Shown: in pieces, positions 25,158-33,476 of the stretch
Numbering within the stretch: position 1 is the first letter of the stretch
How the letters are laid out: every line of letters starts with the position of its first letter
DNA from: Gammaproteobacteria bacterium
Lineage (GTDB): Bacteria; Pseudomonadota; Gammaproteobacteria; Eutrophobiales; Eutrophobiaceae
Direction: 5' to 3'
NCBI GenBank assembly: GCA_965222155.1
Contig: CBDCTH010000012.1
Coordinates: 3,080,441-3,144,440 of the forward strand
DNA length: 64,000 nucleotides
Notes under the pieces: generated by a model
What the model was told of the DNA's origin: nothing
The model's database searches: none
The model's input: the letters and a program-made list of their open reading frames with translations, nothing else
Made by a program: the position numbers and the translations under genes

Positions 25158-27853
25158 CCTTTCGGGAAGTGGAAGACCACGCCAATATCAACTTCAAAGA
25201 TGGAGAAAGTGGTCACCCCACGATAACTAACCTCAAAAGAGAGAACGGGTTCGTCTCGCTCGACCTGCACTTTCCGATTGGATTCGTCAATAAGTCTGGC
25301 GACAGGCCCGGCGACTGGACGTTCATTGCTCACCTCCACGAGCTCGGCCATGCGTTGGGCTTGCCCCATGCCGGCCCCTACAATGGCTATCCTATTCCTA
25401 CGTACGGGCTCGATAACCGGTTTGCGGCAGACTCCTACCAGACGTCGGTCATGTCGTACTTCACTCAGACCAGAAACACCGGCATCGATGCGAGCAAGGC
25501 CTATCCGGTCACGCCGATGATGGCGGACATCCTGGCGATTCAGAAGCTGTATGGCGTCCCCGAGACCAACCCCGGGGATACCGTGTATGGCTACCAGTCC
25601 AACGTCGACGGCTACCTGGGGGAAGTCTTCGCGGCAATCACCGAGCAGGACGGTGAGCTTGATGGGCCGGTGGCACTGACGCTGTTCGACAGCGGCGGGG
25701 AGGACCGGCTGGACCTGCGCACGGATGAGACGGACCAGCGGGTGGACCTGCGCCCGGAAGGCGTCTCGGACGTGTACGGGCTGACGGGCAACTGGCTGAT
25801 AGCGCGGGGCACGGTGATTGAGAACCTGGTGGCCGGTCAGGGCGATGACCAGGTGATTGCGAATGCGGCGGTGAACGAGTTGGACGGTGGCCCGGGCAGT
25901 GACACGGTATCCTATGTGGGCTCGGATGCCGGGGTACGGGTGGACCTGGATGCGGGGACGGGTGTGGGCGGTCATGCTCAGGGCGACGCGCTCAGCAACT
26001 TTGAGCACGTGGTGGGCTCGGCACACGCTGACGAGTTGCGCGGCGATGAGCTGGCTAACCGGCTGGCGGGGGGCGCCGGCGACGATACGTTGTACGGCAA
26101 CGCGGGTGCTGACACGCTGGACGGGGGCGCGGGTAACGACCAGCTGTACGGTCACGAGGGCGACGACCATCTGCGCGGCGATGGTGGCGCTGACGTACTC
26201 GAAGGAGGCGCCGGGGCGGACACGCTGGAGGGCGGCAGTGGGGAGAACAGCGCAGCCTACCGGGGCTCGGACGTCGGGGTGGAGGTAAACCTGGACAGCG
26301 GAGTGGTGTCAGGCGGTCATGCTGCGGGCGACAGGCTCATCAGCATCCAGCACCTTATCGGCTCGGCCTATGCCGACACGCTGACGGGGGATGCGGACGC
26401 CAACCGGCTGGCGGGCGGGGCCGGGGATGACCGGCTGTACGGTAGCGCAGGGGACGATGTGCTGGTGGGCGGGGCCGGCGCCGACACGCTGGGCGGCGGC
26501 GCCGGGGCGGACTATCTGGATGGTGGTGGCGGCCCTGACCGGCTGGCCGGCGGCGCGGGGGATGACACACTGGAAGGGGGCCTGGGCAAGGACACACTGG
26601 ATGGCGGCGCGGGATATGATACTGCAACCTACGCAGGCTCTGCGGCGGGGGTACGGATTGACCTGAAGGCAGGCACGTTCCAGGGGGGTGATGCCGCCGG
26701 GGATGCGCTCACTGATATTGAGCGGATTGTCGGCTCGGCACAGGGCGATGTGCTGTGGGGAAGTGACGGGACAGACCACCTGGTCGGGGGCGCTGGGGAC
26801 GATGAGTTAGACGGTCGTCCGGGTGATGACACGCTGGCCGGCGGGGCCGGGGCGGACACATTGGACGGCGGCGCCGGGGACGACACGCTGCGCGGCGGTG
26901 ACGGGGACGATGTACTGGCCGGGGGCGCCGGCGATGATAAGGTGTACGGTGAAGACGGCGATGACCTGGTCAAAGGCGGTCCGGGGGCGGACACGCTGGC
27001 CGGGGCGGGTGGGGACGACACCTTGTCCTATGGGGACTCTGATGAGGGTGTGAAAGTGGATTTGTATTCTCATACGGCGTCAGGCGGTCATGCCGAGGGC
27101 GACGGAATTCGCGGCTTTCAGCATCTGGTGGGTTCGGCGCAGGCTGACGAGCTGCGGGGCGACTCTGGCGCCAACGAGTTGTGGGGGGGCGCCGGGGACG
27201 ATGAGTTGCGCGGCGAAGCTGGCGACGACACCCTCGACGGTGGCGAGGGTAAAGACCAGCTGTACGGTAACGACGGTAATGACCGACTGGACGGAGGCTT
27301 GAACAACGACCGGCTGTGGGGCGGCGATGGCAACGATCGGCTGGACGGAGGCTTGAACAACGACAAGCTGTGGGGCGACGGCGGCAACGATCGGCTGGAC
27401 GGGGGAGCAGGCTATGATCGACTGAAAGGAGGCCGCGGTGATGACACGCTCCATGGGGGCGCCGGTAACGATCAGCTCTACGGGGGCACCGGAGCGGACA
27501 CCGCGTCCTACACCGACTCGGACGCCGGCGTGCATGTGGACTTACACGCCGGGCGCGCCACGGGCGGTCATGCCCAGGGCGATAAACTGACGGACATTGA
27601 GAATCTGCGCGGTTCCGCGCATGACGATGGGCTGCGCGGGGACGGCGGCGCCAACCGGTTGTGGGGCGGTGCCGGGGATGACAAGCTGGTGGGGTGGTAC
27701 AGACACCCTGGAGGGAGGAGCCGGGGCGGACACCTTCGGATACGTCATGGGGGCGGACTCGAGCGTGGCCAACCCGGACCGGATTGTAGACTTCTCAGGG
27801 AGTGGCGGGGACGGCGACATGTTGAGCATACCTGGCAAGCGCTTTATCGGTAG
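25091..27853 (+). pseudogene. Segment 2: M10 (serralysin-type) zinc protease domain plus RTX nonapeptide blocks (frame 2)
   Basis: WALAAWEAVANLTFREV..., zinc motif HELGHALGLPH (25337-25369), Met-turn SVMSYF, then many GGxGxDxL repeats. Meaningful similarity ends at ~27694, and the remainder up to the stop is out-of-frame read-through. Confidence 0.75.
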
Positions 27854-30800: not shown

Positions 30801-33476
30801 AACGACCTGATCTTCATTGGGACAACGGCCTTCTCCAACAGTGCGGGCGAGGTGCGCTCTGTGCAGCGCGGCGCGGCCACGAGCAACACCGGCGATGATT
30901 ACACCGACGTACTGGTGGACCTGGACGGCAACGGTACAGCGAACGTCAAAGTGACCCTGGTCGGATTGCACAGCCTGACACTGGATGACCTGGTGGGCGT
31001 CCAGGCGCCGCCGGCCCCGGTGGTCACGCCCCGGGACCTCGACGGCACACCGGGGGATGATACGTTGGTGGGCGATGACCAGGACAACGTCCTGCGCGGC
31101 CTGGCCGGCAACGACGTCCTGGCCGGCCAGGCCGGGGCCGATACCCTGGACGGGGGTACTGGCCAGGACACGGCGGCCTACACCGACTCGGACGCCGCGG
31201 TGCAGGTGGACTTGCGCGCCGGGACTGCTACGGGCGGTCATGCCCAGGGTGACACCCTGACGAGCATTGAGCACCTGCGCGGCTCGGCGCACGCGGATGT
31301 GCTGCGCGGGGACAACAGCGCCAACCGGCTGTGGGGCGGTGCCGGGGAGGACAAGCTGGTGGGGCTGGGTGGTAGTGACTGGCTGTATGGCGAGGCGGGC
31401 GCTGACCGCCTGTATGGCAGCTGGGGAGACGACGTACTGGAGGGTGGCGCCGGCGCAGACGTGCTGGACGGTGAAGGCGGTACCGACACGCTGTCCTATG
31501 CCGGCTCGGCGTCAGGGGTGGCGGTCAACCTGGCTGCCGGTACGGTATCGGGGGGGGATGCCCAGGGTGACACGATTGCCAACGTTGAGAATGTGCTCGG
31601 CTCGGCGCAGGCCGATGTGCTGGTCGGGGACGGCAGCGCCAACCGGCTGGACGGCGGGGGCGGGGCGGATACCTTACGCGGGGCTGGCGGCGCCGACACC
31701 CTGACCGGCGGGGCCGGGGCGGACACCGCGTCCTACACCGACTCCAATGCGGCGGTGCAGGTGGACCTGGGGAGCGGCACGGCGAGCGGCGGCCATGCCC
31801 AGGGTGACACGCTCACCGGCATCGAGCACCTCAGCGGATCGGCCCATAACGATACACTGCGCGGCGCGGCCAGCGCCAACACGCTACGCGGGCACGGCGG
31901 TGACGACGGGCTGGCGGGCCAGGCCGGCGCGGACACCCTGGAGGGGGGTCCCGGGGCGGACACGCTGGACGGCGGCGCCGGGTCAGACACCCTGGCCGGG
32001 GGCAGCGGGGCGGACACCTTTGCCTACAGTGCCGCGGCGGACTCGACCGTAACCAACCCGGACCGCATCCTGGACTTCTCAGGGAGTGACGGGGACGGTG
32101 ACCACCTGGACTTATCCGGCCTGGGCAACGACCTGACGTTTATTGGGACAACGGCCTTCTCCAACAGTGCGGGCGAGGTGCGCTCTGTGCAGCGCGGCGC
32201 GGGCACAGGCAACACCGGCGATGATTATACCGACGTACTGGTGGACCTGGACGGCAACGGTACAGCGAACGTCAAGCTCACCCTGGTCGGATTACACAGC
32301 CTGACACTGGATGACCTGCGGGGGGTGCGCGCCGCGCCCCCTGCACCGGCCGACCCCCCTGCGCCCCCGCCCGAGCCGAGTGGGCCGGCGCCTATTGTCG
32401 GGACAGCGGGTAACGATGCCTTGCACGGGGATGCCCAGGCCAACGTCCTGCGCGGCTTGGCCGGCAACGACGTCCTGGCCGGTCAGGGCGGCGCCGACAC
32501 CCTGGACGGGGGCAGCGGGGAGGACACCGCGACCTACACCGACTCGGACGCCGCGGTGCGGGTGGACCTGGGGCGCGGCACGGCGAGCGGCGGCCATGCC
32601 GACGGGGACACGTTCATCAGCATCGAGCATGTCATCGGCTCGGCCCATGGCGATACGCTGCGCGGCGATGCCGGCGACAACACGCTGCGCGGGCGGGCCG
32701 GCGACGATACCCTGGCCGGCAACGGCGGGCGCGACGTGCTGGACGGCGGCGCCGGCAATGACACGCTGGCCGGCGGCGCCGGGGCGGACCTCCTCTACGG
32801 CAGTGGCGGCGCGGACGTGCTGGATGGCGGGACCCATCACGACCTGGTGTCGTATGCGCACTCACCCGCCGGAGTGCGGGTGGACGTGCAGCTCGGCACC
32901 GGCGCCGGCGGGGATGCCGAGGGCGACACGCTCATCAGCATCGAGAGCGTCATCGGCTCGGCGCACGACGACGAGCTCCGGGGCGACTACGGCAACAACC
33001 TGCTGTCCGGCCTGGCCGGTAACGACCGGTTGGTGGGGCAGGGCGGGCGCGACATGCTGTATGGCGGGGGCGGTGATGACACGCTGGACGGCGGCGCCGG
33101 GGACGACAGGCTGAAGGGCGATGGCGGCAGCGACCGGCTCAGCGGCGGGTCGGGGGCGGACATTTTCTGGTTTATCAGCGCGCCCGACTCGACCCCGGCG
33201 ACCCCGGACCAGGTGCTGGATTTCTCAGGGAAGGGGGGTGACGGCGACCGGCTGGACCTGGCCCGCCTGGGCAACGACCTGGCCTTCATCGGCACGGCGG
33301 CCTTTACCGACACACCGGGGCAGGTGCGCTATAGCCAGCGCGGCGCCGGCACGGACGGCAACACCGACGCTGACTACACCGACGTGTTGGCCGATCTGAA
33401 CGGCGACGGCGCGGCCGACTTCATGGTGAGCCTGGTCGGGCTGCACAGCCTGACCGACAACGACTTCATCGTGTGA
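27597..33476 (+). pseudogene. Segment 3: RTX-repeat region with seven cap-like modules (frame 0, meaningful from ~27693)
   Basis: From GGTDTLEGGAGADTFGY onward there are RTX repeats and seven DFSG..GDGD.LDLSGLGN.L.FIGT.AF...GEVR...DDYTDVL.D..G.G.AN.K.TLVGLHSLT modules. It ends ...LHSLTDNDFIV-stop. Confidence 0.75.

What the first reader, a model, noticed from the sequence alone, without database searches (positions are those of the whole stretch)
27693..33476. Seven tandem copies of an 'RTX block + serralysin-type C-terminal cap' module inside one giant ORF
In serralysin/RTX proteins the segment after the nonapeptide repeats occurs once, at the extreme C-terminus, where it caps the beta-roll and carries the type I secretion signal. 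The family pattern is ...D.I.DF....D.IDLS......F.G..AF.G.AGE.R...........D.NGDG.AD..I.L.G. Here the pattern DFSG..GDGD.LDLSGLGN.L.FIGT.AFS.SAGEVR.VQRG....T.DDYTDVLVD..G.G.ANVK.TLVGLHSLT occurs seven times, each copy followed by a fresh RTX block. The DFSG anchors lie near 27790, 28585, 29278, 30290, 30750, 32080 and 33225. Only the last copy ends in a secretion-signal-like ...DNDFIV-stop. Two modules are still identical at the nucleotide level over 247 bp (28551-28797 = 29244-29490, offset 693 bp), so the array is evolving by recent unequal recombination. Linkers between modules differ, for example a Pro-rich PPAPADPPAPPPEPSGPAP near 32330-32400. A protease followed by a chain of complete secretion/cap units is not an architecture I recognise.
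Basis: partly seen in the sequence, partly recalled or inferred. Interest (0 to 1): 0.7.

Follow-up and report, generated by a model that had tools for sequence, protein, structure and literature searches.

The report
Broken giant protease gene, seven RTX-cap modules
This is a frameshifted, probably decaying gene for a giant secreted calcium-binding metalloprotease whose tail is seven beads, each a complete serralysin-type beta-roll plus end-cap; the seven copies are real, but the same modular design recurs in many other bacterial proteins, so it is uncommon rather than new.

Summary
Exactly seven copies of a ~100-residue unit lie at the stated positions in one 1959-codon ORF (27597-33476). 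Each independently matches the C-terminal half of Pfam Peptidase_M10_C and the C-cap of solved serralysins. An AlphaFold model of one module (pLDDT 95) superposes on the serralysin C-terminal domain (TM 0.80, 1.7 A).

Two corrections are needed. First, this is not one gene-length ORF. The protease domain is in another frame, with a shift at a G-run near 27686. A 22-nt deletion near 25119 also cuts off the N-terminus. The gene is probably a pseudogene here, although an intact 2741-aa relative with five caps exists.

Second, the architecture is not unprecedented. A cap-only profile found 3604 proteins among 1.84 billion representatives. Of the best 150, 80 carry 2-18 caps alternating with RTX repeats, on subtilase, esterase and Ig-like passengers. 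AlgE epimerase R-module arrays are a characterised analogue. Two M10_C domains were also reported in a Ruegeria exoprotein.

Best reading: a type-I-secretion-type protease with serially duplicated RTX-plus-cap modules, each probably folding on its own when it binds calcium. Only the last module ends in a usable signal. Interest is modest.

The parts
24828..25119 (+). N-terminal ~97 codons of the protease gene (frame 0), with the family-conserved Cys cluster (GASCCCAGC). Cut off from the rest of the gene by a deletion.
   Evidence: ORF 24828-25157. Aligns to residues 1-125 of the intact homologue P0001. Three-frame translation.
25119..25120 (+). Site of a 22-nt deletion relative to the homologue. 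It removes 'AGQQLAR'-type codons and shifts the frame. The junction has microhomology (TGCGGGCC / TGGGCC).
   Evidence: Global DNA alignment of window 25041-25200 with L001.
25118..25900 (+). Serralysin-like metzincin catalytic domain plus the N-cap part of M10_C (frame 2). Zn motif HELGHALGLPH at 25337-25369; Met-turn SVMSYF at 25445-25462.
   Evidence: NCBIfam NF035945 Zn_serralysin, profile 161-349. PF08548, profile 5-108. Motif coordinates.
25900..27694 (+). First long RTX region without caps (about 34 GxxGxD motifs, 15 HemolysinCabind stretches).
27683..27694 (+). Second frame break, at ...ctg gtg GGGG tgg t..., where GDDKLVG (frame 2) continues as GTDTLEGGAGADTF (frame 0). It is either a 1-nt gain in a G-run or a 5-nt loss within one nonapeptide.
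   Evidence: Sequence and three-frame translation. The relative P0015 is shifted at a similar G-run.
27735..28025 (+). Cap 1. Divergent and 4 residues shorter; 87% identical to cap 1 of paralogue P0004.
28026..28532 (+). Linker plus RTX block 2 (169 aa, 11 motifs).
28533..28829 (+). Cap 2. Contains the exact 251-bp tract 28547-28797.
28830..29222 (+). Linker plus RTX block 3 (131 aa).
29223..29522 (+). Cap 3. Contains the exact 251-bp tract 29240-29490.
29523..30233 (+). Linker plus RTX block 4 (237 aa).
30234..30536 (+). Cap 4.
30537..30992 (+). Module 5: a short RTX block (52 aa) plus cap 5 (30693-30992). The stretch modelled was nt 30537-31010 (158 aa), which also takes in the first residues of the following linker.
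   Evidence: AF2 pLDDT 95.3, pTM 0.90. Foldseek to serralysins TMq 0.80, rmsd 1.7 A.
30993..32018 (+). Pro-containing linker (APPAPVVTP, 31005-31031) plus RTX block 6 (342 aa).
32019..32318 (+). Cap 6.
32319..33164 (+). Pro-rich linker (32331-32393) plus RTX block 7 (282 aa).
33165..33476 (+). Cap 7, the terminal cap, ending DNDFIV (33456-33473) plus stop. It is the only cap with a free C-terminus (presumed type I secretion signal) and is 91% identical to the terminal cap of P0001.

Best explanation
The locus (about 24828-33476, + strand) is a disrupted copy of a gene for a giant (~2,900-residue) serralysin-like zinc metalloprotease of the RTX / type-I-secretion kind. It lies in an uncultured gammaproteobacterium. 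After the catalytic domain and a long RTX region come seven modules. Each module is a linker, a block of calcium-binding nonapeptides, and a serralysin-type C-cap.

Shown: the seven units are homologous to the serralysin beta-roll plus C-cap. One module is predicted with high confidence to be a compact self-contained domain. The array grew and is being homogenised by duplication and gene conversion. The reading frame is broken twice.

Inferred: the intact protein is exported C-terminus first by a type I system, using the signal in the last cap only. Outside the cell each module binds Ca2+ and folds on its own, because it carries its own cap. This contrasts with CyaA, where one terminal cap nucleates folding and upstream blocks are templated one after another. 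The folded product would be a beads-on-a-string stalk joined by short or Pro-rich linkers, which would also stop back-sliding during export. In this genome the copy is most likely a pseudogene.
For: 1. Cap homology: PF08548 profile 95-193 for each of the 7 units. PDB sequence hits are to serralysins only, residues ~370-460.
2. Fold: module model pLDDT 95.3, pTM 0.90. It matches 25 serralysin-family structures with TMq 0.75-0.80 and rmsd 1.7-3.2 A.
3. Protease: HELGHALGLPH and SVMSYF motifs; NF035945 catalytic part matched.
4. Intact relatives with the same layout on independent contigs: P0001 (2741 aa, 5 caps) and P0002 (3258 aa, 6 caps).
5. Frame breaks; 22-nt deletion.
6. Recombination: 251-bp identical tract; cap orthology pattern.
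7. Folding logic: a C-cap is needed for RTX folding, CyaA has a single cap and templated folding, and folding acts as a secretion ratchet (PMC9120197; PMC6891781).
8. The terminal DNDFIV is shared with the terminal caps of relatives.
Against: No type I secretion ABC, MFP or OMP genes are in the 64-kb window or next to the relatives, so secretion is inferred from domain content only. Autonomous folding is inferred from a predicted structure, not measured. The two-module model was of only moderate confidence (pLDDT 69, pTM 0.50), so the geometry between modules is unknown. The second frameshift lies in a G-run, and relatives are shifted at similar G-runs, so it may be a sequencing error. Pseudogene status therefore rests mainly on the 22-nt deletion.
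Confidence: 0.7

Rival explanations
1. The gene is intact and functional in the organism, and both frame breaks are errors of the assembly (a long-read metagenome-assembled genome).
For: Break 2 lies at a GGGG run. The products P0003, P0004 and P0015 of related genes also end in out-of-frame read-through, one of them at the same kind of G-run. This pattern is expected from systematic indel errors in GC-rich repeats.
Against: Break 1 is a 22-nt deletion flanked by microhomology, not a homopolymer slip. Neighbouring genes also look truncated: the acyl-CoA ligase matches only profile positions 232-417 of 531, and the Nramp match is partial. That fits a decaying region.
Confidence: 0.15
2. The internal modules are mainly ligand- or substrate-binding spacer modules, like AlgE R-modules that bind alginate and tune processivity. 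They would position the protease on a polymer or host surface, and their role in folding or secretion would be secondary.
For: The module model matches AlgE4 and AlgE6 R-modules (TM 0.49-0.65). R-modules follow a catalytic module in tandem and bind substrate (PMC4444821). Multi-cap arrays occur behind several enzyme types: subtilase, SASA esterase, Ig-like adhesin.
Against: The cap profile shows no sequence similarity to R-modules at E<=10. No ligand is known. This rival is not exclusive of the main explanation.
Confidence: 0.3
3. The seven-fold array is an assembly artefact (mis-joined or expanded repeat).
For: One 251-bp tract is identical between two units. Repeats are error-prone in assemblies.
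Against: The units differ by 10-42% in protein and have unequal spacing (153-442 aa). Outside the identical tract the two units diverge. Independent contigs carry 5- and 6-cap homologues.
Confidence: 0.03
4. The internal caps are cryptic secretion signals. The protein is cut (possibly by its own protease) after each cap, releasing several fragments that each end in a D-hydrophobic motif.
For: Internal caps keep a D-[LF]-x-G-[VM] end resembling the terminal DFIV.
Against: There is no evidence of cleavage sites. Cytoplasmic RTX substrates are unfolded and the protease would be inactive before export. The motif is part of the last beta-strand of the fold and would be conserved for structural reasons anyway.
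Confidence: 0.04

Closest known systems
Serralysin family (MEROPS M10B): AprA, serralysin, PrtC
   Same: Metzincin Zn motif and Met-turn. An N-cap part of M10_C lies directly after the catalytic domain. Each module reproduces the RTX beta-roll plus C-cap (TMq 0.80, rmsd 1.7 A, 36% identity). The protein ends in a D-hydrophobic C-terminus.
   Different: Serralysins are ~50 kDa with five nonapeptides and one cap (PMC6891781). This protein has ~650 aa of extra RTX and seven caps. The third His is followed by Ala, not Pro. There is an extra Cys-rich N-terminus. No adjacent secretion or inhibitor genes were found. The gene is frameshifted.
AlgE-type mannuronan C-5 epimerases (A-module plus 1-4 consecutive R-modules) and AlyA3, Azotobacter vinelandii
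   Same: A catalytic module is followed by a chain of ~150-aa units, each made of 4-7 nonapeptides plus a non-repeat C-terminal part. The proteins are secreted, Ca-dependent and rod-like (PMC4444821). Fold match TM 0.49-0.65.
   Different: The cap part shows no detectable sequence similarity. The catalytic module is different. Most modules here are longer (230-440 aa) and joined by Pro-rich linkers.
Bordetella CyaA RTX domain (five blocks)
   Same: Several RTX blocks separated by linkers. Folding is Ca-driven and runs from C- to N-terminus, coupled to type I secretion (PMC9120197).
   Different: CyaA has a single capping structure, after block V, and upstream blocks are templated by the folded downstream block. 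Here every block has its own serralysin-type cap. The fold match to block V is weaker (TM ~0.47).
Uncharacterised multi-cap RTX proteins in databases (e.g. Azospirillum rugosum WP_209772446.1; Ruegeria pomeroyi YP_165496)
   Same: Repeated 'RTX repeats + M10_C-like cap' units: 2-18 per protein. Two M10_C domains were noted in the R. pomeroyi exoprotein (PMC2953401).
   Different: The passengers differ (Calx-beta/NIDO/VWD, subtilase, esterase, Ig-like, or none). In the Azospirillum protein the caps are too divergent for Pfam and lie N-terminal to the other domains.

Membership tests
Serralysin-type metalloprotease (M10B) | HEXXHXXGXXH zinc-binding motif and SxMSY Met-turn | tested here: met
   HELGHALGLPH at 25337-25369 and SVMSYF at 25445-25462. 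NF035945 catalytic region matched.
Serralysin-type metalloprotease (M10B) | Pro immediately after the third His (HEXXHXXGXXHP) | tested here: not met
   The window has H-A. Paralogue P0004 has H-P; P0001-P0003 have H-T or H-S.
Serralysin-type metalloprotease (M10B) | C-terminal RTX beta-roll closed by a C-cap (Peptidase_M10_C) | tested here: met
   Met seven times over.
Serralysin-type metalloprotease (M10B) | Reaches NCBIfam NF035945 cut-off as a ~50-kDa two-domain protein | tested here: inconclusive
   Scores exceed the 500-bit cut-off only because repeated RTX and cap stretches are summed (21-30 stretches). The size and layout differ.
Serralysin-type metalloprotease (M10B) | Intact reading frame | tested here: not met
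   Two frame breaks.
Type I secretion substrate | Uncleaved C-terminal signal preceded by RTX repeats | tested here: met
   The terminal cap ends DNDFIV-stop after RTX block 7. This is sequence-level evidence only.
Type I secretion substrate | Cognate ABC transporter, membrane fusion protein and outer-membrane factor | tested here: not met
   None found in the 64-kb window or within 10 kb of P0001 and P0002. The rest of the genome could not be searched.
Type I secretion substrate | Demonstrated Ca-dependent folding and export | not testable with these tools
   Needs experiment.
AlgE-type R-module array | Tandem units of 4-7 nonapeptides plus a non-repeat C-terminal part, following a catalytic module | tested here: met
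   Seven such units follow the protease. The motif counter gives 3 nonapeptide motifs in module 5 and 9-17 in blocks 2, 3, 4, 6 and 7.
AlgE-type R-module array | Sequence homology to R-modules | tested here: not met
   The cap profile finds only serralysins in the PDB at E<=10. The similarity to 2AGM and 2ML1-3 is at fold level only (TM 0.49-0.65).
CyaA-like multi-block RTX domain | Several RTX blocks with one terminal capping structure | tested here: not met
   Here every block has its own cap. CyaA description from PMC9120197.

The most novel reading that the evidence does not exclude
Serial serralysin-type caps may be a second, general solution to exporting very long RTX proteins. Each block would carry its own folding nucleus, so folding, and the ratchet that prevents back-sliding in the type I duct, would restart at every module independently of its neighbours. 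CyaA instead uses one terminal cap with block-to-block templating. The many uncharacterised multi-cap proteins (up to 18 caps) would then form an unrecognised class of 'self-nucleating' RTX stalks.
Probability: 0.3. Interest if true: 0.45.

Novelty: new member of a known kind. Interest (0 to 1): 0.3.

Why it matters
The finding itself is modest. It shows that the serralysin beta-roll plus C-cap is a reusable, duplicable module rather than a once-per-protein terminal feature. It also shows that arrays of this module sit behind proteases, subtilases, esterases and adhesin-like passengers in hundreds of uncharacterised proteins. That offers a natural comparison set for the CyaA folding and secretion-ratchet model (own cap versus templated folding). 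It also offers compact Ca-switchable modules (158 aa, confidently predicted) for protein engineering. For this genome, it marks a GC-rich, recombining and probably decaying RTX protease gene in an insertion between ispE and tRNA-Gln/prs.

Tried and rejected
1. A genome-contig scan with the protease domain of paralogue P0004 found no relatives in GTDB species representatives.
2. Exact-product look-ups for P0004, P0003 and a window protein found no contig on record. The 3.5-Mb source genome could therefore not be read, and T1SS genes elsewhere in it could not be checked.
3. My first narrow HMM, built from the 7 window caps, found caps in only 6 of 120 whole-array homologues. That was too specific, so I replaced it with the 12-sequence profile A2.
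4. The two-module AlphaFold job with a 4-sequence alignment gave only pLDDT 69 and pTM 0.50, so I draw no conclusion about geometry between modules.
5. Pfam and NCBIfam found nothing for ORF 24069-24452. My impression that it is a transposase remnant comes from memory only.
6. Programmed frameshifting was considered and dropped. Relatives read straight through in one frame, and break 1 is a deletion.
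Full report
WHAT IS IN THE SEQUENCE

The region has three consecutive reading frames on the + strand:
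- A 109-codon ORF, 24828-25157 (frame 0).
- A 902-codon ORF, 25145-27853 (frame 2).
- A 1959-codon ORF, 27597-33476 (frame 0).

Translated, they read as the N-terminus, the catalytic domain plus a long RTX region, and the cap array of a single protein. The intact 2741-residue homologue P0001 aligns across all three by tblastn.

The first break is a 22-nt deletion relative to the homologue's DNA. It removes the codons for '...AGQQLAR...' between GACCGC and TGGGCC, with microhomology at the junction. The second break lies at ctg-gtg-GGGG-tgg-t. There GDDKLVG continues in the other frame as GTDTLEGGAGADTF.

It is not true for the protease plus the caps.

THE SEVEN COPIES

DFSG anchors lie at 27789, 28584, 29277, 30288, 30747, 32073 and 33219. 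The ~100-residue units are 58-90% identical to each other. Units 2 and 3 are the closest pair, and units 1 and 7 are the most divergent.

A six-frame scan of the whole 64-kb window finds these seven units and no more. DNA repeat families show the same periodicity.

Pfam's own model, which is independent of this sequence, gives 7 Peptidase_M10_C stretches and 34 HemolysinCabind stretches in the ORF. Each unit submitted alone matches profile positions 95-193 of 193, with E from 4.6e-7 to 1.3e-10.

That region is the C-cap.

The spacing between caps varies from 153 to 442 residues. The blocks between them hold 3-17 nonapeptide motifs, plus the longer '...IEN/H-L-x-GS...' units.

Linkers after each cap begin D-[LF]-x-G-[VM]. 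Two of them are Pro-rich, at 31005-31031 and 32331-32393. Only unit 7 ends the protein (DNDFIV-stop).

STRUCTURE

Module 5 (158 aa, nt 30537-31010) was modelled with a 36-sequence alignment of modules from many proteins. It folds with pLDDT 95.3 and pTM 0.90.

Foldseek places it on 25 serralysin-family entries with TMq 0.75-0.80, rmsd 1.7-3.2 A and 33-36% identity. The next matches are:
- AlgE R-modules (TM 0.49-0.65).
- The RsaA S-layer RTX part (TMq ~0.65).
- CyaA block V (~0.47).

A two-module model built with only four sequences was mediocre (pLDDT 69, pTM 0.50). It gave the same ranking of hits. I draw no conclusion from it about how neighbouring modules pack.

IS THE ARCHITECTURE UNUSUAL?

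It is not. I searched a cap-only profile (no nonapeptides) against 1.84 billion representative proteins. It found 3604 proteins at E<=1e-3.

Re-scanning the best 150 locally, 80 carry two or more near-full caps, up to 18 per protein. Nearly all have 2-10 RTX motifs before each cap. This list is ranked by summed score and so favours multi-cap proteins. It is a lower bound on their number, not a frequency.

Pfam's model independently reports 3-5 PF08548 stretches in 12 of the 14 such proteins I tested. Their passenger domains include a subtilase, a SASA esterase and Big_13 Ig-like repeats; several have no passenger at all. The two exceptions are P0145 (Azospirillum rugosum WP_209772446.1, 4666 aa, with Calx-beta/NIDO/VWD domains) and P0218. 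Pfam sees no PF08548 in either, so their cap counts rest on my profile alone.

The closest relatives of the window gene share its N-terminus and protease domain, and have 5 caps (P0001, intact), 6 caps (P0002, intact), and 5 or 2 caps (P0003, P0004, P0015; these end out of frame). P0008 has 6 caps behind an FG-GAP/protease N-terminus.

P0003, P0004 and P0008 lie on a 3,509,455-bp contig. Four of the eight window proteins I looked up are found exactly on a contig of that length. The genome therefore carries a paralogous family.

Published precedents:
- AlgE epimerases have an A-module followed by one to four R-modules. Each R-module has 4-7 nonapeptides at its N-terminal end and forms a beta-helix. 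The R-modules bind alginate (PMC4444821).

HOW IT PROBABLY WORKS

From the literature:
- Serralysins consist of an N-cap, an RTX beta-roll and a C-cap, with the secretion signal in the last ~20 residues. RTX blocks need protection of their C-terminal edge in order to fold (PMC6891781).
- In CyaA a single cap after block V nucleates folding. Each upstream block is templated by the folded downstream block. Folding outside the cell prevents back-sliding in the type I duct (PMC9120197).

Inference for this protein:
- Every block has its own cap and is predicted to be a self-contained domain, so each module should fold autonomously on meeting extracellular Ca2+.
- Only the last cap has a free C-terminus able to act as the signal.
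- The product would be a string of rigid beads joined by short or Pro-rich linkers, carrying a metzincin protease at its N-terminal end.
- A binding role like that of R-modules is equally possible and does not exclude the folding role.
- None of this is shown experimentally. No type I secretion genes are in the window or next to P0001 and P0002.

EVOLUTION

The 251-bp exact tract (28547-28797 = 29240-29490) is sharply bounded. The two units are not alignable at that offset upstream of it, and are 50-96% identical downstream. This points to a recent gene-conversion or crossover tract rather than a fresh whole-unit duplication or an assembly collapse.

Cap 7 is orthologous to the terminal cap of P0001 (91%). 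Cap 1 is closest to cap 1 of paralogue P0004 (87%). Caps 4-6 are closest to internal caps of P0001 and P0004 (85-93%). Copy number has therefore changed between relatives (5, 6, 7).

The gene is 68% G+C, against 49-62% in the windows outside 26-34 kb. It lies between ispE (ORF 23015-24007, named from its translation, not checked with a family search) and tRNA-Gln/prs (40864 / 41208). Its neighbours there look truncated: an Nramp-like ORF and an acyl-CoA ligase fragment. Relatives sit next to transposase genes.

The organism is an uncultured gammaproteobacterium. Its PrfA is 86-89% identical to four unnamed Gammaproteobacteria MAGs.

PSEUDOGENE OR ERROR?

The 22-nt deletion is not a typical sequencing error, and it argues for real decay. 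The second break, and those in P0003, P0004 and P0015, lie in or near G-runs and could be artefacts. I put about 0.75-0.8 on at least one real disruption.

VERDICT

The 'unrecognised architecture' claim does not hold. This is a new, probably defunct member of a widespread but little-studied class of modular RTX proteins. Its best-characterised analogue is the AlgE R-module array.

Noticed in passing
window 49111-53037 (- strand): A second RTX metalloprotease gene (1308 aa). It has FG-GAP repeats, a matrixin-like domain, the N-part of M10_C and RTX repeats. It has one short, different C-terminal cap ending DATDFIV. It resembles paralogue P0008, which has 6 caps.
   Followed up: partly
window 24870-24900; N-termini of P0001-P0004 and P0015: A conserved Cys cluster (PEH..SCCCxxC) lies at the extreme N-terminus of this protease family. 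RTX substrates usually lack Cys. It might be a cysteine-switch-like latency peptide for the zinc site; this is speculation.
   Followed up: no
window 24007-41200: The stretch between ispE and tRNA-Gln/prs looks like an inserted, decaying island. It holds the 68%-GC RTX gene, a partial Nramp-like ORF (33932-35218), an overlapping acyl-CoA ligase fragment matching only profile positions 232-417 of 531 (35131-36312), and several ORFs with no family match.
   Followed up: partly
window 24069-24452 (+): A 127-aa ORF just upstream of the RTX gene has no Pfam or NCBIfam hit. From memory it resembles the C-terminal part of an IS-family transposase. This was not verified.
   Followed up: partly
P0003, P0004, P0015 (relatives; P0003 and P0004 are on the 3.5-Mb contig that also carries proteins identical to window proteins): Three of the six closest relatives end in out-of-frame read-through inside the GC-rich repeat region, one of them at the same RLWGGAGDDKLVG site. 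This indicates either recurrent slippage in vivo or systematic assembly errors in these repeats.
   Followed up: partly
P0145 (Azospirillum rugosum WP_209772446.1): Eighteen cap-like units alternate with RTX repeats in the N-terminal 3,000 residues. They are followed by NIDO, Calx-beta and VWD domains, so the caps lie far from the C-terminus. Pfam does not recognise these caps.
   Followed up: partly
L001 18681-19349; L082 8759-9538 and 25867-27678: The intact homologues P0001 and P0002 are flanked by transposase genes (DDE_Tnp_1, IS66), and no secretion genes lie within 10 kb.
   Followed up: no
window 43599-47168 (-), 53629-54897 (-), 61446-62384 (+): A SNF2/SWIM helicase, a HipA-like kinase toxin and an N6/N4 DNA methylase are present elsewhere in the window. 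They appear unrelated to the finding.
   Followed up: no
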